From Verrucomicrobiota bacterium (lineage in GTDB: Bacteria; Verrucomicrobiota; Verrucomicrobiia; Limisphaerales; SXTU01): 64,000 nucleotides of DNA. The position numbers were made by a program, and so were the translations under genes. Numbering within the stretch: position 1 is the stretch's first letter; each line of letters starts with the position of its first letter. Below, piece after piece: positions 1,648 to 31,021 of this stretch. The DNA lies in NCBI GenBank assembly GCA_039796295.1, contig JBDKJY010000021.1, forward strand, positions 34,868 through 98,867, written 5' to 3'. The notes beneath the pieces are model-generated. The model was not told where the DNA came from, did not search any database, and saw nothing but the letters and a program-made list of their open reading frames with translations.

Positions 1648-4600
1648 TCACGCCGCTCGCCGTTGGGCGAACACCGCGACGGCCACCCACAGCGCGAGGA
1701 AAGCAGCGATGGTCAGCGCGATGGGCTTGAGCCAGCCGCTGGCCTTTTGATTTCGGGCGGTGAACTCCACGGTCATGGGCTTGTTCACCTCGGTCTGGAG
1801 GACTTGCGTGAAGGCGTGGCGCTGGCCGCGCAACGGGAGGTTCACCCGCAGCGGCTGCACGGTGGCGACGGTCACTTCCTGCGCCTTCTGGAGCTTCTCC
1901 AACTGCTGCTCGGCGGCGTCGGTGTCGTAGCGCGACAGTTGTTGCTGCGTCACCTTTCCATCGCCAGAGGGCGAGACACTGGGACTTGTCGCATCTTCAA
2001 ACGCCGCTCCAAATTTCTTCGCGTTGTCCAACGAGTAAGCCTGCTGTGCCTGCACGAGGTTGCTCGCCTGCGAGCGGCGGAGCTGCACTTCGACTTCCTT
2101 CAACTGCCGCATCTCGTCCACCTCGGCTCCCTTATTGCCGCCGCCTTGTCCGGGGTTGCGCTTGAAGTTGAACCACTCGTTGTTCGCCTCGTTTAGCTTA
2201 CCGGACGAGAGCAGGCTGTTGAGTCTTCCGAGGCTCGACTTCGACTCGCTGTCGCGGTCAGCGCGCACCTTCGCCTCTTGCTTGGAATACTCCGCCGCCG
2301 AGTAGTTCACGGTCACGACCGTCGCGCCGCTCAGGTCGCGGCCCATCGTGCCGGCGAACTCCGTGTATTCGTAGTCCGGCGGCAGCAGCAGCTCCCAGCG
2401 CGCGTTCTTCAGCGGCACGTCGAACTTCGGCGAGGCGAAGGCCACGTGGCCCTTGCGCTTCGGGAACTTGTCCGCTGCGACGTAGGTGAACTCGATGGGC
2501 AACGCCGCGTCGCCGCCGGCCTGCTCCATCGGCAACAGCAGCTTGCCGCCCTGCTTGGTCGGGCGCACGGGCTGGCCGTTCACGAAGGCGCTCCAGACAA
2601 TCGCCCCCGTCGGCAACTCCACTTCGAGGAACTGCCGGCCGTTGTTGCGCATGGACAACGAAACCTCCGTCATCATTTGCCCGTCGTCGGCCACGACGGT
2701 CGTGAGCCGCGCGCTGTCCACGAGCGCCTGCAAGACCGCCGCTTCGGCGAAGCGCTGCGGGGTCACCGCCAGCTTCCAGCCGGGTCGCAGGTAACGCCAC
2801 GCCAGCACCACTTGCTCGCCCTTCGCGCCGGTCGCGTAGGCCGCCGCCCACTCAGGCAGCTCGCGCGCGTCGATGCGCACCAGCTCCGTGCTCGCGGACT
2901 TCTCGGACACTTGCAGCGGCGGCTTGGCGAGGATGGCCACCGACCCCGTCTCGCGCTCGACACCCACGGCCTCGACCGCCGGCACTTCCACGGGCGCGTT
3001 CGTCTTCGCGGCACGCGGTTGCTCCCACGTCACCATGAACGTGTGCTGGCCGCGCAGTTTGTGCTGCAGCTCCACGCGCCACACCTCGCCCGTCTGGTCG
3101 CGGCGGCGGATGTTCGGCCCGGTGATGTCCACGTTCGTGACGGTCAGCGGAATCTTCAGCCGGAACTCCTTCACCGGCGCATTGGCGATGTCCAGCCGCA
3201 CCAGCGCGCGCCCGCTCACGAGCGTCTCGGACACGCTGATGAGGTTCACCACCTCGGCGCGCACCCACGACTCGAGCTGCTCCGTCGCCACGCCCAGCTT
3301 CCAAGCAGGCATCGGCGTCGGGTCGGGGGAAAGGAACTTGAAGGCCAGCGTCGGAATCTCGCTCGACCCTTTGTAGATGCCGACCGGCATGGACGCGGCG
3401 GGAACTTCCGTCAAGCCGTCGAAGCTCTCGGTCTTCACCGAGATGCCCGCCTCGGTGGAGACGGAGACGAAGCCATTCAGCTTGTGGACGCCCAGCGGAT
3501 GCACGGCCGGGACCGCGAGGGTCTTGGGCGCTTCCTTCACCGTCCGCGCGAGCACGACCAGCAGCGAGACCTGGCCCTGCGTGCGTTCGCGCAGCGGCAC
3601 TTCGAGCACGCGCACTCCGGCCTCCGTCTTCTCGGTCCAGTTGTTGATGGGCATCAACGCGCTGCCCTTGGCCCGCAACGTGGCGTCCGCGTAGGCGACG
3701 GTTTCAATCCGCCAGCCCACGGGAATCTGCGCGCGCAACTGGAAGATGCCGGCCTTCTTCACCGTGTAGCTGAACTCTGCCGCGAGCGTGAGCTGCTCCG
3801 CGCCGAGCCGCAGCCGTTGCAGCACCAGCGCCTCGACCTGCGGCTGCACGGCCTCGGCCTTCACCGTCAGTTGAAACGTGCTGCGCAGGTAGCGGAACGC
3901 GCTGACGAGGTCGGTGTAGTTGAGCTTGCTGGCGCGGTTGAACTCGGCGAGTTCCACGCGCTGGAGGTCCTCGGCGGTCTCCACCGCCAGACTCGTCTCC
4001 TCCGCGCCGCGCGCGGCGACCAGGCCCGCCTCGCGGCGCACGTCCTGCACCACGGGCACTTCCACCTTCACCGTCGCGGGCAGCGTGGGCAGCGGCTTCT
4101 CGGTCTCGATGGTCAAGCGCCAGTTCGCGGTCGCGCCCTTGAGCAGGTCCACGGAGAGAACTTCCGCGCCGCCCTCCGTCAGGAGTTCCCAGGTGCGGAT
4201 GCCCTCGCCTTCGACGCGCAGCAGGCGCTGCCCGGCGGGCAGGCGGACCTTGGCCTGGCGCAGCTCGCCCTGCGCGATTTGGTAGTCCACCACCGCGCGC
4301 GAGTTCACTACGCCACCGCCGACGGTCACGAGCGTGGCGGTCTGCGCGAACACGGTGGCCTCCATCTCGGCGAGGCGTTTCATGCGCGGCGTCCAGGCGA
4401 GGTCCACGCGGTCGGTGCTGCCGATGATGGCCTCGACGCGCGTCTGCTTGCCGGCGGGCGTGCGCTTGAAGGCCACGGCGCTGGGGAACTCGACATCCGC
4501 GTCCGGCTCGTCAATGAGCGCGGTGAACTGGCTGGCCAGCGCGGGCGGCAGGCCGAAGCCGAGCCGGCGCTTGGTGACATCGCCGTCGAGGCGGACGAAC

Positions 4601-7600
4601 AGCTTCAACTCCACCGTGACTGCGCCGCTCTTGGGCAACCACACGCGGGCGAAGCCGCCTTCGCGCACGAGCCGCGCCTCGCCGGTCTTGGCGGTGAAGC
4701 TCTGGATGGCCACGTCCTCGCCGAAGAGCGTGAAGGTCTGGTTCGTGCCGGTGGAACTGACCACCAGCGTGGCGGTGAACTCAGCGGCCTTCTCCCGGAT
4801 GGTGCCGGTGTAGGTGGCTGATTGCAGGGTGACGGGTGAATTGTGAATGGTGAGGGGTGAGGAGTAAGGAGTCGGCTGGGCGAGCGCGCTGGTGGTCAGG
4901 AGCGCGAAGGCCAGCAGCGCCGCAGCCGGAGGAACTGGACCCGAGCCGCTGTCCGCAACGGACGGCTTCGATTCAGCCATCGGCACCGGCGTCACGCTGC
5001 CTTCACTCCTCACCATTTTCTCCTCACCATTCACCTTCCCACGCGGCCAAAACCTCCACGCCAGCCAGCACAGCAACGCCGCCCCAGCCAACGGCACGGC
5101 AGCGATTAGAACCCAATGCAGCGTCCTGGCCGACAGCCCCAGCCACACGACGCCCGCGAGCGCGAGCGCTAGTCCGAGCGCGATGCCGAAGGAGCTGCGG
5201 TCAGCGCGCCGCCAGTGGATGAGTGCCCACAGCAGCCCGCCGAGGAAGAGCGCGAGCTGCCCGGCGGACTGCGCCGCGCGGAACTTGCCCAGCGGCATGA
5301 GCGACATCTCGATGCCCAGCGGCTCGGACTTGAGGTTGAGCACCTTGGTGAACGTGAACGCCTGCCCGCTGCGCGGGATGTCGATGCGGATGGAGCGCAT
5401 CCCCACCGCCGTCTGCGCGGCTTCGCCATCGGCCCGCGCGAAGCCGAACCCGCCACTGCCTGCGCCGCCGCCGCCCGCTACTCCGGCGGCAAGCATCCCG
5501 AGTTGGAAGGCCCCGCTCTGGTCCTTCGAGTCGCTTAGAACACTGCGACTCAAGGAATTAACCGCATCGCTGCCCGCAACGGCTGTTCCATTGGCCGACA
5601 AAAAGCCAAGGGTTACGGTGCCGGGGGAACCGCCCGCCCGCTGAACCTGAAGTGAGTTTTGAATGGCCGGAACTGAAAAATTCCTAGTCTCAATGCCATC
5701 GGCGAGCGAAAGCGCTCCGGCCGCTGTGAGTGGCTCGGGAACGGGTGATGCGACAGGCGGCGGTGTCATTGGCATTGGCCCGGAAGCGGCCTTACGCTCG
5801 GCGGCCATGCGACTTGCTACCTCAGCCGGGGTGGCGACTTTTGCCTTCTCACTCCACTTCGCCGTCACTTCTACGCCCCGTCCGGCTGCCATTGGTTCCT
5901 GGCGGGCCGCCTCGAGCCGGTCACTGAGCTTGTCCACTCGGGCCAACTGCTCGACTTCGCCAGACTCACGCCTTTTGTCCGCCATCTGTTTGGCCATCGG
6001 CTTGGCTGGCGCGTTGCCTGGGGCGTCAGCCGTTCTGTAACTAGAGTCCAAAGAGCCATCCGCGTTCAGCCGTTTGATGCGGCCCCGGGCGGCGACTCCG
6101 TTGAAGGTGCTGAAGCCCCCCCCGACCAAAGCGTTGCCGTCCGATTGCAAGGCCAGCGCCTGCACATCCTTCTTCATCCCCACGCCCTGGGCCTGGCGCA
6201 CGGCGGACTGGGCTACGATTTGCGCGTCCTTCTGCTGGGCTTGCGCGAAGTCGGAACTGCTGAGTTGCCGCACGCTGCCGTCGGCGAAGACCGCGTTGCG
6301 CCCGCCGTTGTCCACGGGCGAGTAGGCGAGCAGGGCGTCGCCGTGCTCGGGCTTGCCCGCGCCGACCCAGACGTAGCGCTCGCCGCTGTCCGGGTCGGTG
6401 AGGATTTTGTCGCTGCCCAGCTCGTTCATCATCTCCTCGAAGTTGTCGGGGAAACGGTCCGCGTTGTCGTTGGCGAAGACCCGCGCTCCGAGGCCGATTT
6501 GCTTGAGGTTGCTCACCGACTTGATGCGGCTGGCCTTGGCCTTCGCCTTGGACAGTGCGGGCAACAGCATTCCCCCCATGATGGCGCAGACGAACAGCAC
6601 CACGGCGGCGGTGCCGAAGCCCTTCATCCCATTCTTCTTCACCGAGCGCGCGATGAAGTAAACGACCGCGAGGAACGCCAGACCGCCGAGGAGTTGGCCC
6701 CACACGTCTTCCCACCACGAGAGGAAGCGGTCCCACGCCTCGCGCAGGCCGTAGGTGGTCCCGCGTGCAATGCTCATGGTGCCGCCGAAGCTGGAGACGC
6801 GCTTCGTGGCGGGGACGAAGAGCTGCCACTCGGCGTAGGTGTTGGGCACGTCGGTGGCCGGCGCGGTGAGGGCGACGTGCTGCGGCAGCCACTGGTCCAG
6901 CGCGGCGAGCTTCTGCGCATACACGATGTCCACGGCGAAGGCCTCGTCGCGGTTCTCGCCGCGCGGCAGCGGGATTTGCAGCCAGTCGCCGTCGCGCTCG
7001 GCCTTGCTGGGCTGGTTGTTCACGTAGCAGCCCCAGAAGTTCGCGCCCGCCGGGAGCTTGAAGCGCTGGAACTGCTTCTCGTTGTTCTTCACCATGAAGC
7101 TGGCCTGCGTGAGCATCTCGGCCGCCTCGGTCACGACGCTGGTGATTTGCGTGCGGTCGGCCACGGCGTCGAGCACGCGCTCCTCGTCGAAGCGCGCCGC
7201 GTCCGCTGTGAGCGCGTAGCCGCCGCCGGTGTAGCGATACGCCAGCAGCACGGGCCGCGTGATGAGCGCGCGGTCGGTCTCGGCCAGCTCGGTCTGGTCA
7301 ATGGCCCGCAACGGCTCGGCGGCGGGCTTGGGCTGGAGTTTCAGGTTCGCGGCGGCGGTCACGGCCAGCGAACCGGTCTCGCGCTCGACGCCGTCGCAAT
7401 GCGCGCCCGCGAGGTCGAGCACGGCCTTCTTCGGGTCGAACTGGTAGTCGTAGGTGACGACGAGCGTGTAGCCGCCCCAGGCTTTGTCTTGGAGGGAGAT
7501 GGTCCAGATATTGGTCACAGGCGGGACGCCCGCGCTCCCCAGCTCCTTGCGCCGGATATTCGGCCCGGTGAACTCGACGTTCTTCCAATGCGCCGGGAGC

Positions 7601-9978
7601 GACACTTTGAACTCCTGCACGCCCTGATTCAGAATGCCAAAGCGAATCGTCGCGCTGCCGCCCACGAGGCCGTCGCCGACGGTGACGAGGTTGAACACCT
7701 CGGCGACCGCGCGCGCAGGCAGTCGCTCGGTGGCGAGGGCGAGCTTCCAGTCCGGCGCTTCGGCGGTGAAGGCGAGCGCTTCGTCGCCGGCGCGTTGATT
7801 GAGTTGCGCGATGGGAATCTCCCTTGCATTGGTCAGCTCGGCGGTCTTGAGCCGGATGCCCGCCGCCGAGGCCGCGCCGATGAAGGCGGTCTCCTTCGTC
7901 GCACCCGTGACGCGCACGGCTCCGACGTTGATTTGCGCGGGGAAGGTCTTGTGCGGCTGCTCCAGCGTGAGGTCGAGGCGATGCACACCGAGCACGCGCT
8001 GGGTGAAGTTCACCTTCAGCTTGCCGCCCGTGGCCTTCCAGTCCTCCACGTTCCCGCCGCGCACATCGGTCACGTTGAAGTTCGTCGGGTAAGTCAGCTC
8101 GACGGTGTAGATGCCGGCCTTGAGCACGCTGAGGTTCACCGCGTGGCTCACCACGAGGCGCGATTCCTCCAGCCGCGCCGTGACGCGCGCGGCCGTTTCC
8201 AGCACTGGCTCGATGCGTTTGAGCCGCGCCGCGATGCTGAACGGCCGGGCGTTGAAGCGCCACGCGAAGAGCGTGCCGGTGCTGGCGTTGACCTGCCGCA
8301 CGCCGGTCGTGGACTCGACCTCGACCACGGTGTCGTCCGCCGCGAGGGTGAACGTGCCGGACTCGCGCTCGATGTCGAGGGGCTGCGGGACGAGGAGCGT
8401 GGCGAGGAGCGGCGTGGCCTCGACGGGCTGCTCGGTGGCGAGCGTGAGAGAGTAAGTTTTTTCCACTGGCTTGGCGAAGTCCACGGTGAGGACGGACCAG
8501 TCCGCCGGCACGCGGGCCGCCGCCGTGGCCTTGGCCGTGGACCAATCGCGGATGCCGTCGCCCTGCACGCGCGTGAGCGTGTGGCCCGGCGGCAGGCCGA
8601 CGGTGAGGCGCGAGACACTGGCCTGGAGCAGCTCGTAGTGGAGCACCGTGGTGAACTTGATGACCGTGGGCGAGACCACCGCGCTGGCGGCGGTGTCCAC
8701 CGTGATCAGGGACTTGCGCGCAATCTCCGTGGTCTTGCTCTGCCAGCGCAGCGAGACGACGCGGTCCGCGCCGACGATGCCGGCAATGGAGGAACTGGCC
8801 TTCGCCGTCGCGCCTGAGCCTTCCAGCAACGCGCCGTTGAGGAGTTCAAGTTCCACGCCGGCGTTGCCCTCCACCTTGAGGCTGGCGACGGACGCGGGCG
8901 GGCCGTTGAAGCTGATGTGGTTCCACGGCTCGGCCTTGGTGATACGCGCGATGACTTCGAGCTTGAGCGTGTGGACGCCGGACTTGGCACAGTGCAGGCG
9001 GTAGGTGCCGGAGCGCGGGCTGATCGAGACCGCCTTGCCGAGCGTTCGCTCCGCCGACTCCCGCGTGAGGCGGATGCCCGCCGGCAACTCCGGCGCGAAG
9101 ACGGCCACGTCGCCTTGGAAGAGAACTGCGCTGACCTCGTTCGTCGTGAGTGACTCGACCTCGACTGTCGCCGTGAAGCGCGCCTCGGAGTCTGTGACTT
9201 TTCCTTCGTAGCGCACCTCGCGGACGATGAGGTTTGTGTAGGTCGCGGGCGGCGGCAGCGTGGCGACGCCGATGGTCTTGGGCGGGCTGGAGCCGCGGGA
9301 GATGATTTGCAGGCCGTTGAGCACCGCCACGCCGCCCGGTCCGGGCGCGACCTCGATAATGACGGGTTGTCCGGCCTCCACCGGCACGTCGCGGAACACG
9401 ATGAACTGCCGGCCTTCTTGCCAGCCCAAGGAAGCCTTCCAGCCACCGGCCGAACCAACCGCCAGCGGACCGAGGGTGTTCGTGCCGCTGCGGAGGGTGA
9501 ACACGGAGTTTTGCTCTGGGGTGGCATCGGGATCAGCATGACCGTAGAGGTAGCTATGATAGCGCCCCGCCTCCAGCGCGCGGACGGTCACAAGGATGTT
9601 CGAGCCGTTCGGCGCGAAGACGAACGAGTCAAACATCGGGTCACCCGAGGCGTTGCCCCAGACACCGGGGGCGTTGCTGACAGCGATGGACACGGCGGAG
9701 TCGGACTTGTCGGAGAGCTTGAGCCCGGAGGTCGTGTGGTTCGGCACCGGCGGCTGGCCAGGTGTGAAGCGCGGGTTGTAATGCGCGTGCAGGTTCCAGA
9801 AGTCATTCGTCGCGAGCCCCGTCGCGGCAAAGCCCACCTTCCCGCTCGCCGCTCCGACACCGAAGTCCACGTTGAGGAGGACTTGGGCTTGGGCCGGGGC
9901 GAGGCGGAGCAGGATTAAGCTTAGGATTACGAGCAGGAAGGGGGACGGGAAGCGGCGGGAGGCGGGCGTGGTCTTCAT
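1648..9978 (-). CDS. giant membrane-anchored secreted protein of unrecognised family (2,776 codons); two paralogous halves in one frame
   Basis: Start chosen at ATG 9978 (MKTTPASRRFPSPFLLVILSLILLRLAPAQAQ, signal peptide). Upstream ORF-track residues 1-143 lie in a repeat-filled intergenic region. High GC3 is kept throughout with no in-frame stop. There are internal TM clusters at about 6560-6700 and 5040-5270 and a C-terminal TM at about 1660-1730. Confidence 0.65.
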   Translation of the reverse strand: MKTTPASRRFPSPFLLVILSLILLRLAPAQAQVLLNVDFGVGAASGKVGFAATGLATNDFWNLHAHYNPRFTPGQPPVPNHTTSGLKLSDKSDSAVSIAVSNAPGVWGNASGDPMFDSFVFAPNGSNILVTVRALEAGRYHSYLYGHADPDATPEQNSVFTLRSGTNTLGPLAVGSAGGWKASLGWQEGRQFIVFRDVPVEAGQPVIIEVAPGPGGVAVLNGLQIISRGSSPPKTIGVATLPPPATYTNLIVREVRYEGKVTDSEARFTATVEVESLTTNEVSAVLFQGDVAVFAPELPAGIRLTRESAERTLGKAVSISPRSGTYRLHCAKSGVHTLKLEVIARITKAEPWNHISFNGPPASVASLKVEGNAGVELELLNGALLEGSGATAKASSSIAGIVGADRVVSLRWQSKTTEIARKSLITVDTAASAVVSPTVIKFTTVLHYELLQASVSRLTVGLPPGHTLTRVQGDGIRDWSTAKATAAARVPADWSVLTVDFAKPVEKTYSLTLATEQPVEATPLLATLLVPQPLDIERESGTFTLAADDTVVEVESTTGVRQVNASTGTLFAWRFNARPFSIAARLKRIEPVLETAARVTARLEESRLVVSHAVNLSVLKAGIYTVELTYPTNFNVTDVRGGNVEDWKATGGKLKVNFTQRVLGVHRLDLTLEQPHKTFPAQINVGAVRVTGATKETAFIGAASAAGIRLKTAELTNAREIPIAQLNQRAGDEALAFTAEAPDWKLALATERLPARAVAEVFNLVTVGDGLVGGSATIRFGILNQGVQEFKVSLPAHWKNVEFTGPNIRRKELGSAGVPPVTNIWTISLQDKAWGGYTLVVTYDYQFDPKKAVLDLAGAHCDGVERETGSLAVTAAANLKLQPKPAAEPLRAIDQTELAETDRALITRPVLLAYRYTGGGYALTADAARFDEERVLDAVADRTQITSVVTEAAEMLTQASFMVKNNEKQFQRFKLPAGANFWGCYVNNQPSKAERDGDWLQIPLPRGENRDEAFAVDIVYAQKLAALDQWLPQHVALTAPATDVPNTYAEWQLFVPATKRVSSFGGTMSIARGTTYGLREAWDRFLSWWEDVWGQLLGGLAFLAVVYFIARSVKKNGMKGFGTAAVVLFVCAIMGGMLLPALSKAKAKASRIKSVSNLKQIGLGARVFANDNADRFPDNFEEMMNELGSDKILTDPDSGERYVWVGAGKPEHGDALLAYSPVDNGGRNAVFADGSVRQLSSSDFAQAQQKDAQIVAQSAVRQAQGVGMKKDVQALALQSDGNALVGGGFSTFNGVAARGRIKRLNADGSLDSSYRTADAPGNAPAKPMAKQMADKRRESGEVEQLARVDKLSDRLEAARQEPMAAGRGVEVTAKWSEKAKVATPAEVASRMAAERKAASGPMPMTPPPVASPVPEPLTAAGALSLADGIETRNFSVPAIQNSLQVQRAGGSPGTVTLGFLSANGTAVAGSDAVNSLSRSVLSDSKDQSGAFQLGMLAAGVAGGGGAGSGGFGFARADGEAAQTAVGMRSIRIDIPRSGQAFTFTKVLNLKSEPLGIEMSLMPLGKFRAAQSAGQLALFLGGLLWALIHWRRADRSSFGIALGLALALAGVVWLGLSARTLHWVLIAAVPLAGAALLCWLAWRFWPRGKVNGEEKMVRSEGSVTPVPMAESKPSVADSGSGPVPPAAALLAFALLTTSALAQPTPYSSPLTIHNSPVTLQSATYTGTIREKAAEFTATLVVSSTGTNQTFTLFGEDVAIQSFTAKTGEARLVREGGFARVWLPKSGAVTVELKLFVRLDGDVTKRRLGFGLPPALASQFTALIDEPDADVEFPSAVAFKRTPAGKQTRVEAIIGSTDRVDLAWTPRMKRLAEMEATVFAQTATLVTVGGGVVNSRAVVDYQIAQGELRQAKVRLPAGQRLLRVEGEGIRTWELLTEGGAEVLSVDLLKGATANWRLTIETEKPLPTLPATVKVEVPVVQDVRREAGLVAARGAEETSLAVETAEDLQRVELAEFNRASKLNYTDLVSAFRYLRSTFQLTVKAEAVQPQVEALVLQRLRLGAEQLTLAAEFSYTVKKAGIFQLRAQIPVGWRIETVAYADATLRAKGSALMPINNWTEKTEAGVRVLEVPLRERTQGQVSLLVVLARTVKEAPKTLAVPAVHPLGVHKLNGFVSVSTEAGISVKTESFDGLTEVPAASMPVGIYKGSSEIPTLAFKFLSPDPTPMPAWKLGVATEQLESWVRAEVVNLISVSETLVSGRALVRLDIANAPVKEFRLKIPLTVTNVDITGPNIRRRDQTGEVWRVELQHKLRGQHTFMVTWEQPRAAKTNAPVEVPAVEAVGVERETGSVAILAKPPLQVSEKSASTELVRIDARELPEWAAAYATGAKGEQVVLAWRYLRPGWKLAVTPQRFAEAAVLQALVDSARLTTVVADDGQMMTEVSLSMRNNGRQFLEVELPTGAIVWSAFVNGQPVRPTKQGGKLLLPMEQAGGDAALPIEFTYVAADKFPKRKGHVAFASPKFDVPLKNARWELLLPPDYEYTEFAGTMGRDLSGATVVTVNYSAAEYSKQEAKVRADRDSESKSSLGRLNSLLSSGKLNEANNEWFNFKRNPGQGGGNKGAEVDEMRQLKEVEVQLRRSQASNLVQAQQAYSLDNAKKFGAAFEDATSPSVSPSGDGKVTQQQLSRYDTDAAEQQLEKLQKAQEVTVATVQPLRVNLPLRGQRHAFTQVLQTEVNKPMTVEFTARNQKASGWLKPIALTIAAFLALWVAVAVFAQRRAA
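5004..5031. repeat. 14-bp tandem duplication at the junction of the two paralogous halves
   Basis: CACTCCTCACCATT (5004-5017) is followed directly by TTCTCCTCACCATT (5018-5031), 12/14 identical. See findings. Confidence 0.8.
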
Positions 9979-10230
9979 GGAGTGATTCCGGGTTGCGGGT
10001 GAGCGTAGGCAAGTCTTGGGCGCGAAGTCATCGGGTAAAAACCGGAGCGGCGGGCGGGTGGCGGAGCGCATCGGGCGTGGGACGGGAACGCGTGGCGCTT
10101 GCTCCCGGCCACACCGGCTGGGAGCGAGGGCATGGAAGCGGGCGGTGCGTAGCAGCGGAGCCGTTGAACGGTCACGGCAAGCCGGAAGCGGAAAGCCGTC
10201 CGTCCGTTTGGAGTCGGACCCATTCTTTAG

Positions 10231-10360
10231 CCACGATGGAACACGGATGGAACACGGGTGGGAGCCAGGAGTTGAACGCGCCTCCCAATCGGTGGCGACG
10301 CCGCAGCCGTGCAGCGGCAAGCCTTCGCCTGTTACGCCGTGTTTCATCCGTGACTCAATT
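10231..10360. repeat. palindromic intergenic element (GGATGGAACACGG family)
   Basis: CGGATGGAACACGG (10244-10257) pairs with CCGTGTTTCATCCG (10337-10350), 13/14 complementary. It is related in motif to the long hairpin at 50570-50685. Confidence 0.5.
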
Positions 10361-10520
10361 GCATGATTCCGGCTCACCACCCAGCTTCCGCGATCATTTT
10401 GCGTCACTTTGTGTTCTTTGCGGCCAATTCAATTCCAGCCGCCCTTCTGCGCGTGGGACGCTGCGGGTTAGTCGCACTTGCCCGTTGTCACCGGCAGTGG
10501 CTCCGCTAGTCTCCCGCCCC

Positions 10521-11839: not shown

Positions 11840-13030
11840 ATGTTGAGCTGGCTGACGGTCGCCAGCTTCACCGTCACCGCCGCCGACTGGCTTCAGTTTC
11901 GTGGTCCGGGCGGCACCGGCATTGCCACCGAGGCCCAGCTCCCAACGCACCTCGATGCGAAGAGTGTCGCCTGGAAAATCGCCTTGCCCGGACGCGGCCT
12001 CTCCAGCCCGGTCATCGTCGGCGACAAGGTGTTCGTCACCGCGTCGAGCGGCACGGAGCAGGACCGGCTGCACGTCCTTTGTTTCAGCGCGAAGAGCGGC
12101 GCGAAGCTGTGGGAGCGGCAGTTCTGGGCCACGGGTCGCACGATGACGTTTCCGAAAACCTGCGTCGCCGCCAACTCGCCGTGCAGCGACGGCCAGCGGC
12201 TCTTCTGCCTCTTCTCTTCGAACGACCTACTCTGCCTCGACCTCGACGGCAACGTGCTCTGGCTGCGCGGGCTGACGCGCGATTATCCGAACGCGAGCAA
12301 CAGCCTCGGCATGGCGGCGTCGCCCATCGTGGTGGGCGACACGCTCGTGGTGCCGGTGGAGAACGACAGCGAATCGTTCACGGCGGGCATCGACGTGGCG
12401 ACCGGCGCGAACCGCTGGAAGAACAACCGCCCCAAGGTCGCGTGCTGGGCGACGCCCGTGGTCGTGCCTGACGCGAAGTCCGGCCAGCCGCTCGTCGTGT
12501 TGCAGTCCGGCCCCGGCCTGAGCGTGGTGGACGCGCGCACCGGAGTGGAGGCGTGGTATTTCACCGACGGCGCTTCGACGATGTCGTCGAGCGTGCTGGT
12601 GGGCGGCGTCCTGTATGTGCCCTCGAAAGGCATGACGGCGATGAAGCCCGGCGCGGCGGGCGCGCATCCGGAAGTGCTTTGGCAGAACGCGCAACTCTCT
12701 CCCTCCACCGCCAGTCCGGTGGTGCTAGGGGACAAGGTGTTCACGTTGAACGCCGCCGGCATTCTCAGCGCGGCGGGCCTTGCGGACGGCAAACGTCTCT
12801 GGCAGCTCCGCACCACGGGCCCTTACAGCGCCACGCCGGTGGGCGTCGGCAAGTTCCTCTACCTCGCGAACGAGAAGGGCCTCGTGCAAGTCGTGGACAC
12901 CGCCGCTCCCGAAGGCGCGGTGGTCAGCTCGCTCGACTTGAAGGACACCTTCATTGGCACGCCCAGCATCGGCGCGGGCGCGCTCTTTATTCGCAGTGAC
13001 AAGGCGCTGGTGAAGGTGGGTGGCTCGTGA
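11840..13030 (+). CDS. PQQ-like beta-propeller repeat protein (BamB-like fold), secreted
   Basis: MLSWLTVASFTVTAADWLQFRGPGGTG, then repeated motifs such as SSPVIVGDKVFV, AKSGAKLWE, VATGANRWK, ARTGVEAWY and LADGKRLWQ. The alternative start at 11693 (TAATG overlap with the upstream gene) would translate the repeat element. Confidence 0.75.
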   Translation: MLSWLTVASFTVTAADWLQFRGPGGTGIATEAQLPTHLDAKSVAWKIALPGRGLSSPVIVGDKVFVTASSGTEQDRLHVLCFSAKSGAKLWERQFWATGRTMTFPKTCVAANSPCSDGQRLFCLFSSNDLLCLDLDGNVLWLRGLTRDYPNASNSLGMAASPIVVGDTLVVPVENDSESFTAGIDVATGANRWKNNRPKVACWATPVVVPDAKSGQPLVVLQSGPGLSVVDARTGVEAWYFTDGASTMSSSVLVGGVLYVPSKGMTAMKPGAAGAHPEVLWQNAQLSPSTASPVVLGDKVFTLNAAGILSAAGLADGKRLWQLRTTGPYSATPVGVGKFLYLANEKGLVQVVDTAAPEGAVVSSLDLKDTFIGTPSIGAGALFIRSDKALVKVGGS

Positions 13031-13040
13031 GATTGGGCAC

Positions 13041-14519
<1,479 letters not shown>

Positions 14520-14650
14520 CCGAGCGCCTGAGTCCGAGCGGTTACTGCCTCCGCACGATGCACTGTTCGGCGGCTACGGTTTTCCCCCGGAGAATGAGTA
14601 GCCCCAATTTCCAAAGACAATTGGTGCTTTGCCGTTCGTTGGTCCCTTCC

Positions 14651-14777
14651 CCCTCACCCCAACCCTCCCTCCGAGAGAGCGGCGCTTCGCCGCCGGCTCG
14701 TGAATCAACACGGTCTGATAGTTCGAGATGTGGCCTGCGTGGCTCCCTCTCTCAGCGGGAAAGGGTTGGGGTGAGGG
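14651..14777. repeat. palindromic intergenic element (CCCTCACCCCAACCCT arms)
   Basis: A perfect 16-bp inverted repeat: 14651-14666 CCCTCACCCCAACCCT pairs with 14762-14777 AGGGTTGGGGTGAGGG. Confidence 0.7.
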
Positions 14778-14903
14778 AGAACAGCCACGCACGCTCAACC
14801 AAGTTGTAAGAAACTGCGATGCGCGCTCCGGGCAGCGGCTGGGGAAGCCTGCTGTTGTTATCCTGCCCGCGCCGCTGCTAGCTTCGGCCATCGCTATCCG
14901 CGC

Positions 14904-16343
14904 ATGAACTTTTTCAACGCCATCGCCGTTGGGCTGAAGGAGATTTGGGCGAACAAGTTTCGCTCCCTCCTCACCATGCTGGGCATCATCCTGGGCGTCT
15001 CCAGCCTCGTGGCCATGTCCGCGCTCGTGAAGGGCATGGAGAACGGCATGAAGGAAGCGCTCATCGCCATCGGCGGACTCGAGAAGGTGCGCGTCGAGGA
15101 GCAGGACATTCCCGTCTGGCAACAGCACATGGCGGATCAGGCCGTCGGCACCACCATGGCCGATGTCCACGCGCTCCTGCACAGCGCGCCCCTCATCACG
15201 ATGGTCGTGCCCGAGATGCGCACGCGGAACATCACCATGACCCGCATGGGCAAGAGCATCAGCCCGTGGAACTTCATCGGCACCTGGCCCAACGCCGTGG
15301 AGCTGAACCAGCACATCGTCGCGCACGGGCGGATGTTCAATGAGATCGACGACGAGAACGCGCGCAACGTGTGCGTCATCGGCACCGCGGTGCGCAATGC
15401 CCTCTTCGGTTCGCCGGAGCAGATTGGCCGCGAGATCATCCCCATCGGCGAGTTCATCAACATCAACAACCAGCGCTTCAAAGTCATCGGCATGTTCGAG
15501 CACTACGAGGCCGAGCAAGACCGGAAGGCGCGCGAGCTCCAGAAGGACAAGCCGGCGGAAACCAAGGGCGGGCCGGAGCGCAGCAAGGGCTACGGCAGCG
15601 GCAAGGGCAGCAGCCGCAGCGGGGGCTTCGTTTTCGACCTGAAGAACAACACCGTTTACATCCCGCTGAACACGATGTGGCTGCGGTTCCGCGCGGCCAC
15701 GGGCACCTCGGGCAGCGGCTCCGGCAGCTACGGGCGGAGCAGCAGCTCCAGCGTGACTTCGGGCAGCACGGCGGAGTTCGTTCCCGATCCGCGCCTGTCC
15801 ACGCTCTCCATCAAGATCGCGGACATCGACAAGATGGATGAGGCGCTCCAGCAGGCGAAGAACGTGATGTTGCACACCCACAAGGGCATCGAGGACTTCT
15901 CCTTCCGCACGCAGGAGAACTGGTCCGAAACCATCACCAGCTCCATCAGCAACGCGCGCATGAGCGGCGGCATCATCTCGGCCATCAGCCTGCTGGTCGG
16001 CGGCATCGGCATCATGAACATCATGCTGGCCAGCATCACCGAGCGGGTGCGCGAGATCGGCATCCGCAAGGCTATTGGCGCGACGTTCTTCGACGTGTTC
16101 ACGCAAATCCTCGTCGAGAGCGTGGTCATCGCGATCATCGGCGGGGTGGCGGGCTTGTTCGCCTCGGACCTGCTGGTGAAGCTCCTCGTGGCGATGTCGC
16201 CCACGGAGAACACGCCGATGATCACGGCGGAGAGCATGGTGATGGCGTTCGCGTTCAGCGTGGCGGTGGGCGTCATCGCGGGGCTGTTCCCCGCGTTCAA
16301 GGCGGCGAAGCTCAACCCGATTCAGGCGCTGCGCTACGAGTAG
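14904..16343 (+). CDS. ABC transporter permease, MacB/FtsX family
   Basis: N-terminal FRSLLTMLGIILGVSSLVAM, then a MacB periplasmic domain, then a C-terminal FtsX 4-TM core (GGIGIMNIMLASITERVREIGIRKAIGA). Low-complexity G/S-rich insertions lie at about 15505-15780. Confidence 0.85.
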   Translation: MNFFNAIAVGLKEIWANKFRSLLTMLGIILGVSSLVAMSALVKGMENGMKEALIAIGGLEKVRVEEQDIPVWQQHMADQAVGTTMADVHALLHSAPLITMVVPEMRTRNITMTRMGKSISPWNFIGTWPNAVELNQHIVAHGRMFNEIDDENARNVCVIGTAVRNALFGSPEQIGREIIPIGEFININNQRFKVIGMFEHYEAEQDRKARELQKDKPAETKGGPERSKGYGSGKGSSRSGGFVFDLKNNTVYIPLNTMWLRFRAATGTSGSGSGSYGRSSSSSVTSGSTAEFVPDPRLSTLSIKIADIDKMDEALQQAKNVMLHTHKGIEDFSFRTQENWSETITSSISNARMSGGIISAISLLVGGIGIMNIMLASITERVREIGIRKAIGATFFDVFTQILVESVVIAIIGGVAGLFASDLLVKLLVAMSPTENTPMITAESMVMAFAFSVAVGVIAGLFPAFKAAKLNPIQALRYE

Positions 16344-16360
16344 GGCAGGACGGCACCACG

Positions 16361-16463
16361 GAGTTGAACCACTAACCGGCACTGACTGGCACTAATGAAG
16401 ACAGCCAGGCAACGCACATCTCCCCCTTCGGATGAGTGCTGGTTAGTGGGTTAACCCGAACTC
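16361..16463. repeat. palindromic intergenic element (CCACTAACC arms)
   Basis: GTTGAACCACTAACC (16364-16378) versus GGTTAGTGGGTTAAC (16441-16455); an imperfect inverted repeat. Confidence 0.45.
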
Positions 16464-18744: not shown

Positions 18745-18746
18745 AG

Positions 18747-18835
18747 CCGGGGCAGGGAATGGGGAATAGGGAATAGGGGATAGGGGGACGGACCACGCTC
18801 GGCCCTATTACCTATTCCCCATTCCCTATTCCCGG
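18747..18835. repeat. palindromic element between the DUF58 and transglutaminase genes
   Basis: AGGGAATGGGGAATAGGGAATAGGGG on the left pairs with CCCTATTACCTATTCCCCATTCCCT on the right (about 26/27 complementary by eye). The element fills the 100-nt gap inside the operon. Confidence 0.65.
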
Positions 18836-18844
18836 TGTTCTGGT

Positions 18845-30274: not shown

Positions 30275-31021
30275 ATGAAGTCATCTCCGTCCCGAACTCA
30301 ATCACTCCGCGCCTTCACCCTCATCGAGCTGCTCGTTGTCATCGCCATCATCGCGATTTTGGCCGGGATGCTCTTGCCCGCGCTGTCCAAGGCGAAGGAA
30401 AAGGCCAAGTCGGTGTCCTGCCTGAGCAATCAGCGGCAGCTTGGGATCGCCTTCCGGCTTTATGCAGACGACCAGGATGGGCGTTTGGTCCAGCTCGCGC
30501 GCGTGGGTGCGCCGCCCGCCACGGCGATGGTCCCAGACCCCGCCAACGGAGCGACCAGTTGGCCGGACATCCTGGCCGCCTACGCTCCTGGCCAGAAGAG
30601 CTACAACTGCGCCTCCCAACGCGTGCCTACCATCAACGGCAACACGAACACCTTCGGCATCGGCATCAACTATCCCGACATTGGCGTCTATCTCGGCCAG
30701 CCCATCGTCCGCGAGCAGATGGTGGCCAAGCCCTCGGCCACAGTCGCTTTTGCCGACACTTCCTGGATTGGCAACCCCGCCGTGACCAACCCCGACCTGT
30801 GGACCGCCACCGCCCAGACCAGCGTCAACCCCTGGGATGCCCTCTGCTTCCGCACCCAGAACAATGCGTTCTATGCCACGCTCCCGTCGCGGACCATCAG
30901 CCGCCACAACGGACGCTGCAACACCACCCACGTGGACGGCCACGCCGAGAGCATGAAAAACAGCGACATCGGTCTCGACAAACTGAACGGTGATCCGTTG
31001 GCGCAGTGGGACCGCGAGTGA
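30275..31021 (+). CDS. prepilin-type N-terminal cleavage/methylation domain protein with H-X9-DG motif (DUF1559-like)
   Basis: [46 protein letters not shown], and C-terminal [13 protein letters not shown]. Confidence 0.85.

What the first reader, a model, noticed from the sequence alone, without database searches (positions are those of the whole stretch)
6040..6780. An unprocessable pseudopilin-like module and a single delta-60-like repeat are embedded in the middle of the giant protein
Between the core and the tail of the first paralog there is a ~250-codon insertion that the second paralog lacks. It consists of two hydrophobic helices followed by [43 protein letters not shown] ... DNGGRNAVFADGSVRQLS. 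This parallels the stand-alone prepilin/H-X9-DG gene at 30275-31021 ([42 protein letters not shown] ... [18 protein letters not shown]). The match extends to the DNA: ATGCTGTTGCCCGCACTGTCCAAGGCGAAGG versus ATGCTCTTGCCCGCGCTGTCCAAGGCGAAGG, 29/31 identical. The prepilin cleavage/methylation motif (FTLIELLVV with Glu+5) is replaced by GFGTAAVVLF, so this module cannot be processed as a pilin. Next come one delta-60-like repeat (DGNALVGGGFSTFNGVAARGRIKRLNADGSLDSSY, ~6040-6150) and a Pro/Ala-rich linker. Such pilin-like modules normally form the N-terminus of small secreted proteins. An internal copy in a giant membrane protein is an architecture I do not recall being described.
Basis: partly seen in the sequence, partly recalled or inferred. 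Interest (0 to 1): 0.6.

Follow-up and report, generated by a model that had tools for sequence, protein, structure and literature searches.

The report
Pilin-derived domain inside giant envelope protein
A 2,776-residue membrane protein of an uncultured verrucomicrobium carries, in its middle, a membrane helix plus a small head domain that descend from a type IV pilin but have lost the pilin processing signal. The same arrangement is conserved in over a hundred related giant proteins, and the same head recurs in other membrane signalling proteins, so it looks like a re-used periplasmic domain rather than a pilus subunit.

Summary
Window 6040-6780 (- strand) encodes residues 1067-1313 of one 2,776-aa protein (gene 1648-9978, -). 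The order is TM1, a basic loop, then one ~54-residue helix (TM2 plus pilin-like alpha1), a ~108-aa head ending in D-X9-DG, and one delta-60/DUF5122 repeat.

The helix is homologous to type IV pilins and GspG (family profile against PDB sequences, E=1.4e-10). The prepilin cleavage/methylation model matches 0 of 53 family modules.

This is not a one-off. Of 120 cluster representatives of the giant family (2,358-2,798 aa apart from one 1,736-aa partial record; Verrucomicrobiota/Limisphaerales MAGs), 107 keep a complete head. The head is as conserved as the core domains. 24 representatives already carry pipeline names such as "pseudopilin PulG".

The capture is old and did not come from the neighbouring prepilin gene. 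The 29/31 DNA match reflects a shared peptide plus codon bias.

The nearest relatives of the head outside the family are also mostly not prepilins: proteins encoded just downstream of ECF sigma genes, BlaR1/M56 proteins with tandem heads, and small two-TM proteins. One canonical prepilin also carries it.

The delta-60 repeat occurs only in the closest relatives and is often truncated.

Most likely function: a tethered periplasmic binding or sensing head. This is inferred, not shown.

The parts
1648..9978 (-). Giant gene, 2,776 aa. It consists of a signal peptide, an N-domain, core 1, the module, a linker, tail 1, TM3-6, core 2, linker 2, tail 2 and TM7. The start is the MKTTPASRRF Met, not the longer ORF that runs to 10407.
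   Evidence: ORF list and translation. It is 100% identical to P0121, a 2,776-aa NCBI/JGI protein, and the gene call on an independent contig agrees. The two halves are paralogous. Hydrophobic segments were mapped.
6706..6780 (-). Conserved post-core motif (residues 1067-1091, TMSIARGTTYGLREAWDRF...) that leads into TM1.
   Evidence: Mean identity to 37 orthologues is 0.50.
6646..6705 (-). TM1 (residues ~1092-1111), running from outside to inside. Its sequence is poorly conserved.
   Evidence: Hydropathy 1.92. AF2 models helix 2-24 of the A1 model. Mean identity is 0.18.
6619..6645 (-). Short basic cytoplasmic loop RSVKKNGMK (residues 1112-1120). It contains the near-invariant Gly1117 (window 6628-6630).
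   Evidence: There are 4 Lys/Arg in this stretch. Gly is present in 106/108 family members and is preceded by R/K-R/K.
6466..6627 (-). One continuous ~54-residue helix (residues 1118-1171). TM2 corresponds to pilin alpha1-N (to L1142, with Pro1140 as the Pro22 equivalent), followed by amphipathic alpha1-C (SKAKAKASRIKSVSNLKQIGLGARVFAND).
   Evidence: AF2 models helix 26-79 with model pLDDT 83.7. The family profile against PDB sequences hits GspG 5wda at E=1.4e-10, geopilin at 2.8e-9 and PilA at 2.6e-8, aligned to pilin residues 3-64. 41 of 53 family modules hit TIGR01710 GspG.
6232..6552 (-). Pilin-like head (residues 1143-1249): alpha1-C, a loop with two short helices, three to four beta-strands, and the D-X9-DG turn.
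   Evidence: The head HMM scores 148.5 bits here. The AF2 head model has pLDDT 86.5 and pTM 0.78. Mean identity to orthologues is 0.53-0.66, equal to the cores.
6259..6309 (-). Match to the H-X9-DG C-terminal motif model (residues 1224-1240). The actual sequence is D-NGGRNAVFA-DG.
   Evidence: TIGR04294 scores 20.3-20.6 bits against a cut-off of 19. The His column is Asp in 31/45 and His in 0/45; Gly is invariant.
6034..6168 (-). Single delta-60/DUF5122-like repeat (residues 1271-1315). It is a clade-specific insertion in the variable linker.
   Evidence: PF17164 scores 30.5 bits (gathering score 27) and TIGR02608 scores 24-26 bits (cut-off 76.5). It is the only copy in the window. It is found in only 11 of 120 family members and is often truncated. 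This region is gapped in 94% of 37 aligned orthologues.
5404..6033 (-). Pro/Ala/Gly-rich variable linker (residues 1316-1525).
   Evidence: Mean identity is 0.09, with 63% gaps across orthologues.
5269..5403 (-). Conserved 'tail 1' (MRSIRIDIPRSGQAFTFTKVLN...), immediately before TM3-5. It is paralogous to tail 2 at the C-terminus.
   Evidence: Mean identity is 0.60.
30275..31021 (+). Stand-alone canonical prepilin of the H-X9-DG class, used as the comparison gene. It is not the donor of the module.
   Evidence: PF07963 scores 27.3 bits, TIGR02532 26.6 bits and TIGR04294 20.7 bits. The leader reads RA|FTLIELLVV. The head HMM matches only positions 1-34 of the profile.

Best explanation
The segment is a conserved accessory module of a family of ~2,500-2,800-aa multi-pass envelope proteins found in Verrucomicrobiota/Limisphaerales.

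**What it is.** It is a transmembrane hairpin. The second helix and the ~108-aa head that follows it derive from a type IV pilin / T2SS-pseudopilin-like protein of the DUF1559 class, in a 'mini-head' D-X9-DG variant.

**How it probably works (inferred).** The chain leaves the periplasm through TM1 and turns in a short basic cytoplasmic loop. It returns through TM2, which has the same N-in/C-out orientation as a prepilin helix. The module is not at the N-terminus and has no class III signal peptide. It is therefore most likely inserted as part of the polytopic protein, stays covalently tethered, and is not polymerised into a filament. The head then sits in the periplasm close to the inner membrane. 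There it most likely serves as a protein- or ligand-binding (sensor or adaptor) domain.

**Why binding or sensing.** The same head occurs in proteins whose architecture and gene context point to extracytoplasmic sensing. These are single-pass proteins encoded 8 bp downstream of ECF sigma genes, and BlaR1/M56-type proteins carrying 4-7 soluble tandem copies.

**Other points.**
- The capture is ancient (family-wide) and did not come from the prepilin gene 24 kb away.
- The single delta-60 repeat is a recent, clade-restricted and decaying insertion in the variable linker. It cannot form a beta-propeller on its own.

**Shown:** homology of the helix, absence of the canonical processing motif, conservation, predicted topology, and recurrence in other architectures.
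**Inferred:** lack of processing, periplasmic location, and the binding or sensing role.
For: - The gene is real, not a chimera. An identical 2,776-aa protein exists in NCBI/JGI, and 120 cluster representatives have the same two-half layout (2,358-2,798 aa apart from one 1,736-aa partial record).
- The helix is pilin-related. The family profile hits GspG at E=1.4e-10, geopilin at 2.8e-9 and PilA at 2.6e-8, in register with pilin residues 3-64. 41/53 modules hit TIGR01710 and 32/53 hit PilA. 19/53 hit Pfam DUF1559. TIGR04294 scores 20.3-20.6 bits against a cut-off of 19.
- The prepilin signal is absent. TIGR02532 and PF07963 are missing from the hits of all 53 modules, while the local stand-alone prepilin scores 26.6 and 27.3 bits as a positive control.
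- The pilin register is preserved. Pro22 is present in 108/108. Position 5 is Thr in 41, Glu in 29, Ser in 9 and Ala in 7.
- AF2 gives confident models (pLDDT 83.7 and 86.5). They show a ~54-residue helix followed by small helices and 3-4 strands.
- The topology is self-consistent under the positive-inside rule.
- The head is under constraint. Identity to 37 orthologues is 0.53-0.66, against 0.57-0.65 for the cores and 0.09 for the linker.
- 107/120 members have a complete head. The 13 without it still keep the hairpin, and their deletion junctions differ.
- The head recurs in other contexts, in a search of 1.84 billion representatives. These are at least 56 proteins with a ~60-aa N-terminal cytoplasmic region, a TM helix and a head; 4 BlaR1/M56 proteins with tandem heads (Pfam confirmed); 7 other multi-head proteins; and two-TM-plus-head mini-proteins. 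One canonical prepilin, P0047 (KRG|FTLVE), has the same head.
- In 3 of 3 loci examined, the single-pass family lies directly downstream of an ECF sigma gene.
- The window's head groups with orthologous heads, not with local pilins.
Against: - The binding or sensing role rests on analogy with architectures whose own functions are untested. The N-terminal region of the ECF-linked family matches no Pfam anti-sigma domain.
- 13 of 120 family members have lost the head, so it is dispensable in some lineages.
- The near-invariant basic-basic-Gly motif before TM2, and Glu at position 5 in 27% of members, could still mean interaction with prepilin peptidase or with pilins.
- The neighbourhood of the giant gene is not conserved, and the window contains no T2SS or T4P genes. 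Gene context therefore gives no functional support.
- Monophyly of all the giant-family heads is not supported in a short-alignment NJ tree (1/100 bootstraps).
Confidence: 0.6

Rival explanations
1. The module is a docking or anchor pilin. The uncleaved pilin-like helix and head still pack against the alpha1 helices of the many stand-alone DUF1559 or other pseudopilins, or against the assembly platform. The giant protein would then be physically coupled to a type IV filament or T2SS-like machine, for example as a base subunit that cannot leave the membrane.
For: - The alpha1-N register is preserved to the residue: Pro22 in 108/108 and Glu at position 5 in 29/108.
- In filaments, Glu5 pairs with the N-terminal amine of the neighbouring pilin, and tip subunits lack Glu5 (PMC10191384).
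- TM2 has prepilin topology.
- The genome encodes canonical H-X9-DG prepilins.
Against: - No T2SS or T4P genes lie near the giant gene in the window or in four other loci.
- Most family members, including this one, lack Glu5.
- The same head works as soluble tandem repeats with no helix anchor in BlaR1-like proteins. The head therefore does not need a filament context.
- The head has been lost in 13/120 members.
Confidence: 0.15
2. The module is an evolutionary relic with a purely topological role. The hairpin is needed only to carry the chain across the membrane and back, and the head is a tolerated passenger or spacer with no specific activity.
For: - The hairpin is retained in all 120 members, whereas the head has been deleted several times with different junctions.
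- TM1 and the loop are poorly conserved.
- The paralogous second half functions without any such module.
Against: - The head is as conserved as the cores (0.53-0.66 against 0.57-0.65), while true spacers in the same protein fall to 0.09.
- About 15 head positions are at least 90% conserved across 45 diverse sequences.
- The head is reused in several unrelated architectures.
Confidence: 0.17
3. The module is a cryptic prepilin-peptidase substrate. The conserved basic-basic-Gly at the cytoplasmic face of TM2 is cleaved, splitting the giant protein into an N-terminal fragment (core 1 plus TM1) and a C-terminal fragment that begins with a pilin-like helix.
For: - Gly is present in 106/108 members, preceded by Arg/Lys-Arg/Lys, at the cytoplasmic end of a helix with prepilin orientation.
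- Prepilin peptidases act on the cytoplasmic face and cleave after Gly or Ala; Glu5 is frequent but not universal in pilins (PMC10191384).
- In the profile alignment to an unprocessed geopilin, this Gly aligns with Gly-1.
Against: - The Gly lies one residue further from position 5 than in canonical prepilins, and positions +1 and +2 are Lys/Arg/Gln and Gly/Arg rather than hydrophobic.
- The cleavage/methylation models match 0 of 53 modules.
- The 'leader' would be 1,100 residues including a TM helix, for which I know of no precedent.
- A conserved Gly in a tight two-helix turn has a simple structural explanation.
Confidence: 0.05
4. The region is an artefact: a mis-assembled or frameshift-fused ORF that joins a pilin gene to unrelated genes.
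For: Metagenome-assembled genome. High G+C content produces long shadow ORFs on both strands.
Against: - The identical protein was called on an independent Logan contig.
- More than 100 orthologues from different studies have the same order of parts.
- Frame-specific conservation runs across all junctions.
Confidence: 0.01

Closest known systems
DUF1559 / H-X9-DG prepilin-type proteins of Planctomycetes-Verrucomicrobia (Pfam PF07596 SBP_bac_10, NCBIfam TIGR04294); local example at window 30275-31021
   Same: Both have the alpha1 block ...[12 protein letters not shown]......NLKQ.GLA..... and a C-terminal strand-turn ending in DG. TIGR04294 scores 20.3 bits on the module against a cut-off of 19, and 19/53 family modules hit PF07596. 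The taxonomic range is the same. The function of this family is itself unknown (PMC10632474).
   Different: - The module has no class III signal peptide and is not N-terminal.
- Its head is ~108 aa instead of ~200-300 aa.
- The His of the motif is Asp.
- The window module scores only 14.5 bits on PF07596, below the gathering score of 23.3.
Type IV pilins and the T2SS major pseudopilin GspG
   Same: Both have a ~50-residue N-terminal-type helix with a hydrophobic first half, Pro22, and an amphipathic second half. The family profile hits GspG 5wda at E=1.4e-10, and 41/53 modules hit TIGR01710 at E<=0.01. The predicted order of secondary structure is helix, loop, then a small beta-sheet.
   Different: - The module is not a prepilin: there is no leader and no Glu5 here.
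- It is not free to polymerise, being tethered on both sides.
- No significant structural match of the head to solved pilins was found.
- Scores are far below the GspG equivalog cut-off of 88.85.
Modular pilins, e.g. PilB of Streptococcus sanguinis (PMC8179133)
   Same: Both are multidomain proteins that contain a pilin module fused to other modules.
   Different: Modular pilins are defined by an N-terminal IPR012902 pilin module with extra modules grafted at the C-terminus, and they are polymerised into pili. Here the pilin module is internal. It is preceded by ~1,090 residues and a TM helix, and it lacks IPR012902/TIGR02532.
Proteins found here that carry the same mini-head: an ECF-sigma-linked single-pass family (N-terminus MEPERKIEKLLR..LHPATRRLLQGEV), BlaR1/M56 proteins with 4-7 tandem heads, GYF_2-DUF4190-head proteins, and two-TM-plus-head mini-proteins
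   Same: The head is the same: 85-160 bits against the family profile, with the D-X9-DG ending. None has a canonical prepilin signal. In the membrane-anchored ones the head directly follows a TM helix that keeps the pilin register. The two-TM mini-proteins reproduce the whole inserted cassette.
   Different: The partners differ: a cytoplasmic ~60-aa region beside an ECF sigma gene, or an M56 peptidase domain. The BlaR1-type copies are soluble repeats without the hydrophobic helix. None of these proteins has been characterised experimentally, as far as my searches show.
Delta-60 repeat / DUF5122 beta-propeller proteins (TIGR02608, PF17164)
   Same: One unit matches PF17164 above its gathering score (30.5 against 27). 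It is 53-68% identical to units of annotated delta-60 repeat proteins.
   Different: There is a single unit (two in P0136) instead of the many needed for a propeller. TIGR02608 scores 24-26 bits against a cut-off of 76.5. The unit is restricted to close relatives and often truncated.

Membership tests
Type IV prepilin (class III signal peptide; IPR012902 / TIGR02532 / PF07963) | Class III signal peptide at the protein N-terminus: a short hydrophilic leader ending in Gly or Ala, followed by a 20-25-residue hydrophobic stretch (PMC10191384) | tested here: not met
   The module starts at about residue 1092 of 2,776 and is preceded by a 1,060-aa exported region and TM1.
Type IV prepilin (class III signal peptide; IPR012902 / TIGR02532 / PF07963) | Match to the cleavage/methylation domain models | tested here: not met
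   There is no hit for the window module at E<=1, and both models are absent from the hits of all 53 family modules at E<=0.01. As a positive control, gene 30275-31021 scores 27.3 and 26.6 bits.
Type IV prepilin (class III signal peptide; IPR012902 / TIGR02532 / PF07963) | Glu at position 5 of the mature helix (frequent, not universal) | tested here: not met
   The equivalent residue here is Thr1123. Across the family it is Thr 41, Glu 29, Ser 9 and Ala 7 of 108.
Type IV pilin superfamily (fold and homology) | A ~50-residue alpha1 helix, hydrophobic in its N-terminal half, homologous to pilin alpha1 | tested here: met
   AF2 models helix 26-79. The profile against PDB sequences hits GspG at 1.4e-10, geopilin at 2.8e-9 and PilA at 2.6e-8, in register. 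Pro22 is present in 108/108.
Type IV pilin superfamily (fold and homology) | Globular head built on an antiparallel beta-sheet packed on alpha1-C ('lollipop') | tested here: inconclusive
Type IV pilin superfamily (fold and homology) | Processing by prepilin peptidase and polymerisation into a filament | not testable with these tools
   This needs biochemistry. The sequence argues against the canonical route.
DUF1559 / H-X9-DG (PF07596, TIGR04294) | Score at or above the curated cut-off of TIGR04294 (C-terminal H-X9-DG motif) | tested here: met
   The module scores 20.3-20.6 bits against a cut-off of 19. On the whole protein the score is 16.8 bits. 10 of 53 family modules hit at E<=0.01.
DUF1559 / H-X9-DG (PF07596, TIGR04294) | The conserved His of H-X9-DG | tested here: not met
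   The residue is Asp1223 here. The column is Asp in 31, Glu in 4 and His in 0 of 45.
DUF1559 / H-X9-DG (PF07596, TIGR04294) | Pfam PF07596 at or above the gathering score, covering the ~268-position model | tested here: not met
   The score is 14.5 bits against 23.3, and it matches only the last 18 model positions. The family matches weakly, 19/53 with a best E-value of 4.2e-6. The head is ~108 aa.
Delta-60 repeat / DUF5122 beta-propeller | Match to the repeat-unit model PF17164 | tested here: met
   The score is 30.5 bits on the segment and 27.6 bits on the whole protein, against a gathering score of 27.
Delta-60 repeat / DUF5122 beta-propeller | Several tandem units, enough to form a propeller (TIGR02608 cut-off 76.5) | tested here: not met
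   There is one unit scoring 24-26 bits, and no other copy in the window.
Modular pilins (PMC8179133) | N-terminal IPR012902 pilin module with further modules grafted at the C-terminus | tested here: not met
   The pilin module is internal and lacks the motif.

The most novel reading that the evidence does not exclude
The pilin-derived helix-plus-head is a so far undescribed class of periplasmic sensor or adaptor domain in PVC bacteria. It would link three kinds of membrane proteins (giant envelope proteins, ECF-sigma-coupled single-pass proteins and BlaR1-type proteases) to the large pool of DUF1559 pilins. It could do so by recognising the same ligand as those pilins. Alternatively, it could pack against mature pilins in the membrane through the retained alpha1 register. 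In that case the giant protein would be a non-extractable 'anchor pilin' that couples a type IV-like fibre to an envelope-spanning scaffold or to ECF signalling.
Probability: 0.12. Interest if true: 0.75.

Novelty: new variant of a known kind. Interest (0 to 1): 0.42.

Why it matters
Type IV pilins are defined by their N-terminal class III signal peptide, and 'modular pilins' keep the pilin module at the N-terminus. This case shows the pilin helix plus head surviving without that signal as an internal, tethered domain. It is conserved in a large family of giant envelope proteins. The same head also occurs in ECF-sigma-linked and BlaR1-type proteins.

This bears on DUF1559, one of the largest unexplained paralogous families in Planctomycetes and Verrucomicrobia. 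Planctopirus limnophila has 68 copies, two of them essential (PMC10632474). The head evidently can work outside a filament, and the ECF-linked versions offer a possible experimental read-out for what it recognises.

It also flags an annotation problem. Proteins of 2,500 aa are being named 'pseudopilin PulG' or 'type II secretion system protein' on the strength of a ~60-residue helix.

Tried and rejected
2. **Recent capture from the prepilin gene at 30275-31021.** Rejected. Similarity is confined to the helix. The DNA match consists of identical codons plus two synonymous changes. Orthologous heads are far closer.
3. **A vestigial head in the second paralogous half.** This was suggested by weak BLAST pairs. 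Rejected: hhalign probability 0.3%.
4. **Conserved gene neighbourhood of the giant gene.** None was found across the window and four other loci. One locus (L083) has an ECF sigma gene and a head-bearing gene as divergent neighbours of a family member. This is not repeated elsewhere.
5. **Relation of the cores to DUF4139.** Three DUF4139 genes lie upstream of the orthologue in L089. BLASTP found nothing. Pfam, NCBIfam and PDB sequence searches of the core also found nothing.
6. **Taxonomic survey in genome contigs.** The back-translated patterns were the pilin helix itself, so the scan was swamped by stand-alone pilins. Only 4 of 80 loci were true family members, all Verrucomicrobiota MAGs or mislabelled bins.
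7. **First homologue search with the module alone.** It returned only proteins of 433 aa or less. It could not show long architectures, so searches were used instead.
8. **Internal translation start at Met1118 (MKG|FG...).** Rejected. The Met is not conserved (Leu, Ala or other residues in orthologues), and the frame is continuous in all homologues.


Full report
**1. What is at the coordinates**

The finding lies on the minus strand inside one very long ORF, 1648-10407. The likely start is the Met at 9978 (MKTTPASRRFPSPFLLVILSLILLRLAPAQAQ, a signal-peptide-like N-terminus), which gives 2,776 aa. A protein of exactly this length and sequence is on record as P0121, 'MAG: hypothetical protein RL514_2568 [Verrucomicrobiota bacterium]'. 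The same gene is called on an independent contig. Window 6040-6780 encodes residues 1067-1313.

The protein is a tandem in-frame fusion of two paralogous halves, 29% identical over 877 aa, E=6e-90. Each half has a ~850-aa core, a linker, a conserved ~45-aa 'tail' and membrane helices. Only the first half contains the module.

**2. Check of the observation**

- Hydropathy finds two hydrophobic segments, 1092-1111 and 1121-1142. They are separated by RSVKKNGMK, which carries four positive charges.
- The sequence then runs [41 protein letters not shown] ... DNGGRNAVFADGSVRQLS.
- Against the stand-alone prepilin gene 30275-31021, BLASTP gives 49% identity over 51 aa, E=1e-13, confined to the helix.
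- The 31-nt match is 29/31, with none expected by chance. The two differences are synonymous (CTG/CTC Leu, GCA/GCG Ala). The match is what an identical decapeptide yields in a genome with strong codon bias.
- NCBIfam TIGR04294 (H-X9-DG) scores 20.3 bits on the module against a cut-off of 19. Pfam DUF5122 scores 30.5 bits against a gathering score of 27. TIGR02608 (delta-60) scores 25.7 bits against a cut-off of 76.5 that presupposes many repeats.

There are two corrections. The 'H' of the motif is Asp here, and it is never His in 45 aligned family heads. Counted back from the invariant proline, the residue equivalent to pilin Glu5 is Thr1123.

**3. The architecture is a conserved family feature**

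A search with the whole protein returned 120 cluster representatives. All are 2,358-2,798 aa apart from one 1,736-aa partial record. They are 50-83% identical over their best local alignment, which covers 40-100% of the query. The source names are almost all Verrucomicrobiota, Limisphaerales or Verrucomicrobiae.

Twenty-four of them already carry pipeline names that derive from the internal module: 19 'type II secretory pathway pseudopilin PulG', 2 'prepilin-type processing-associated H-X9-DG protein' and 3 'type II secretion system protein'.

An HMM of the head finds a complete head in 107 of the 120. The 13 without it still have both membrane helices and a pilin-like end to TM2. They lack the head through deletions with different junctions, which indicates repeated loss.

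Mean identity of the window protein to 37 diverse orthologues, by region:

| Region | Mean identity | Note |
|---|---|---|
| Head | 0.53-0.66 | |
| N-domain and the two cores | 0.57-0.65 | |
| TM1 | 0.18 | |
| Linker | 0.09 | 63% gaps |
| Delta-60 region | 0.03 | gapped in 94% of orthologues |

The head is therefore under the same constraint as the main body of the protein.

**4. Relation to pilins**

- A profile of 53 family modules (alignment A1) was searched against all PDB sequences. It hits the T2SS major pseudopilin GspG (5wda, E=1.4e-10), geopilin (2.8e-9, 5.3e-9) and PilA proteins (2.6e-8, 1.7e-6). The alignment is in register with mature pilin residues 3-64, and the weak consensus Glu of the profile sits on Glu5.
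- Scanned one by one, 41 of 53 modules hit NCBIfam GspG, 32 hit PilA and 10 hit TIGR04294. None hits the prepilin cleavage/methylation domain TIGR02532.
- 19 of 53 hit Pfam DUF1559, and none hits N_methyl.
- The helix keeps the pilin register exactly. Pro22 is present in 108/108. Position 5 is Thr in 41, Glu in 29, Ser in 9 and Ala in 7.
- A Gly preceded by two basic residues is present in 106/108. It sits one residue further from position 5 than the canonical Gly-1, and positions +1 and +2 are charged or Gly.
- AlphaFold2 models are confident: pLDDT 83.7 for hairpin plus head and 86.5 for the head alone. They show TM1, a turn, one continuous ~54-residue helix, two short helices, three to four strands and a C-terminal helix. 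This order of elements is that of a pilin 'lollipop' as described in PMC10191384.

I therefore treat homology of the helix as shown and the pilin fold of the head as likely but untested.

**5. Topology (inferred)**

The predicted path through the membrane is as follows.

1. Signal peptide, then N-domain and core 1, outside.
2. TM1.
3. Basic loop, inside.
4. TM2.
5. Head, linker and tail 1, outside.
6. TM3.
7. RRADRSS, inside.
8. TM4, a short outside loop, then TM5.
9. A basic ~40-aa loop, inside.
10. TM6, which is signal-peptide-like.
11. Core 2, linker 2 and tail 2, outside.
12. TM7, ending in QRRAA, inside.

This path is self-consistent. It gives TM2 the N-in/C-out orientation of a prepilin before processing (PMC10191384).

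**6. Where else the head occurs**

A profile search of 1.84 billion representative proteins listed 150 best hits. I classified the 135 of them that were new to the session; the other 15 had already been returned by earlier searches.

- 40 are giant-family proteins or fragments of them.
- At least 56 belong to a 350-610-aa family. It has a conserved ~60-aa N-terminal region (MEPERKIEKLLRAYAKKRR...LHPATRRLLQGEVAR), one TM helix in pilin register (some with Glu at position 5), the head, and a further C-terminal domain.
- 4 are BlaR1/M56 peptidase proteins with 4-7 tandem heads and no hydrophobic helix. For the two scanned against Pfam (P0331, P0356), Peptidase_M56 scores E=4e-41 and 2e-37.
- 7 are other multi-head proteins.
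- 28 are other or short fragments. These include four small proteins (172-194 aa) consisting of just TM1, a basic loop, TM2 and the head, which is the same cassette as the insertion.

Further contexts outside that set of 135 are GYF_2-DUF4190-head proteins (from the module search) and DUF3352-head proteins. One canonical prepilin, P0047 (MRHFKRG|FTLVELLVV...), among the 15 already-known hits, has the same head.

In 3 of 3 loci examined, the single-pass family lies directly downstream of an ECF sigma factor gene, with an 8-bp gap in the two loci that have intact gene calls. That is the usual position of an anti-sigma factor. However, its N-terminal region matches no Pfam family, so that assignment rests on context and topology only.

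An NJ tree of heads places the window's head with its orthologues. Fifteen of 19 giant-family heads form one group next to the ECF-linked family and P0047. Four divergent heads, whose alpha1-C is more like PulG (IPNFVKAR...), fall elsewhere. Monophyly of all giant-family heads has no bootstrap support. The alignment is short, and I draw from it only that the window's head was inherited vertically within the family.

**7. The delta-60 repeat**

The window has one such unit. Within the family it occurs only in the closest relatives (P0122-P0126, P0129, P0131, P0132) and in P0136 and P0139, often truncated. It sits in the variable linker. A single unit cannot form a propeller. I read it as a recent, decaying insertion. 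It is not part of the conserved module.

**8. How it most likely works**

Four points are shown:
- a pilin-derived helix and its conserved head are built into a polytopic protein;
- they have no canonical prepilin signal;
- the predicted topology places the head in the periplasm;
- the head recurs in other membrane proteins.

The rest is inferred. The module is probably inserted as part of the protein, stays tethered, and acts as a periplasmic binding or sensing head. This would match the ECF-linked and BlaR1-type proteins, whose architectures are those of extracytoplasmic signal receivers. I give this reading about 0.6. That is higher for 'what it is' and lower for the binding role.

Rivals:
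- **A docking or anchor pilin** that still packs against free pilins or their assembly platform (0.15). The exact alpha1 register and Glu5 in 27% of members favour this. The absence of any linked T4F genes and the helix-less soluble copies argue against it.
- **A topological relic** (0.17). Repeated head loss favours this. Core-level conservation argues against it.
- **A cryptic prepilin-peptidase substrate** cleaved at the conserved Gly (0.05).
- **An assembly artefact** (0.01). This is refuted by family-wide conservation.

**9. Comparison with what is known, and novelty**

The module works like, and descends from, a type IV pilin of the DUF1559/H-X9-DG class. It is not a member of the prepilin family as defined: the N-terminal class III signal peptide was tested and not met. 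It is also not a modular pilin in the sense of PMC8179133, which requires an N-terminal IPR012902 module.

The library searches gave little:
- 'DUF1559' returned four papers, which treat it as a large paralogous family of unknown function.
- 'H-X9-DG' returned one irrelevant paper.
- The other queries returned nothing relevant to internal copies.

The architecture is therefore common in sequence databases and loosely auto-annotated, but as far as I could search it has not been described. I rate it a new variant of a known kind, of moderate interest. The more interesting result is the wider pattern: a pilin head re-used as a periplasmic domain in several classes of membrane protein.

Noticed in passing
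window 1648-9978 (-): The giant protein is an in-frame tandem of two paralogous ~1,000-aa units (29% identity over 877 aa). The second unit begins with its own signal-peptide-like helix (residues ~1681-1700, ...LLAFALLTTSALAQ). The fused layout is kept in all 120 homologues listed. Neither the cores nor the tails match any Pfam, NCBIfam or PDB sequence.
   Followed up: partly
L082 5164-6360; L083 3001-4239; L085 3001-4287: A family of 350-610-aa single-pass proteins has the N-terminus MEPERKIEKLLR..LHPATRRLLQGEVAR, a TM helix in pilin register, the same mini-head and a C-terminal domain ending ..NRIEINAVP. In 3 of 3 loci it lies directly downstream of an ECF sigma factor gene. It is a candidate new class of anti-sigma factor with a pilin-derived periplasmic domain.
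   Followed up: partly
proteins P0331, P0356, P0371, P0373 (no locus fetched): BlaR1/M56 peptidase-domain proteins of 1,200-1,650 aa carry 4-7 tandem soluble copies of the same head (alpha1-C plus beta part, without the hydrophobic helix) at their C-terminus.
   Followed up: partly
L083 1-2107 (-) with 2372-4239 (+): In one MAG (GCA_026225255.1) a giant-family member (52% identical over 705 aa) is the divergent neighbour of an ECF sigma gene and a head-bearing gene. The arrangement is not seen in the window or in three other loci.
   Followed up: yes
giant-family proteins P0127, P0134-P0136, P0139, P0140, P0150, P0181, P0202, P0217, P0219, P0230, P0237: Thirteen family members have lost the head but all keep the TM hairpin with a pilin-like ...LP.. 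end to TM2. The deletion junctions differ, which suggests several independent losses. P0136 and P0139 have delta-60-like units in its place.
   Followed up: partly
giant-family proteins P0170, P0203, P0205, P0209, P0214, P0231: Some family members have an alpha1-C of the classical PulG/GspG type (..IPNFVKAR...NLRQI..A...) instead of the DUF1559 type (..[17 protein letters not shown]). Their heads fall outside the main group in the NJ tree. Either they have diverged or the head has been replaced.
   Followed up: no
window 16654-21278 (-): A MoxR AAA+ ATPase (20310-21278), a DUF58 protein (18845-20275) and a transglutaminase-core/DUF4129 membrane protein (16654-18744) form a typical MoxR-DUF58-TgpA-like cluster. 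A 602-aa ORF with no family match (14574-16382) follows. The cluster is separated from the giant gene by plus-strand genes.
   Followed up: no
window 30275-33520 (+) and 13020-14519 (+): The stand-alone H-X9-DG prepilin gene is immediately followed by a PSCyt1/PSD2-5/PSCyt3 (DUF1585-1595) protein. A DUF1501 protein lies at 13020-14519. These are typical PVC-specific families.
   Followed up: no
L089 1-4220 (+): Upstream of the giant-family gene P0164, on the same strand, lie three consecutive DUF4139 paralogues (~500 aa each) and a TPR protein. BLASTP shows no similarity between DUF4139 and the giant protein.
   Followed up: yes
window 62994-63995 (-): An ORF at the window edge matches the COR-A and COR-B domains (C-terminal of Roc), so it is part of a Roc-COR type GTPase protein. 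It is unrelated to the finding.
   Followed up: no
annotations: Proteins of ~2,500 aa are named 'type II secretory pathway pseudopilin PulG' or 'type II secretion system protein' on the basis of the ~60-residue internal helix alone. Several family members also sit in bins labelled Proteobacteria, Acidoferrum or Limnocylindrales, which is probably mis-binning or mislabelling.
   Followed up: no
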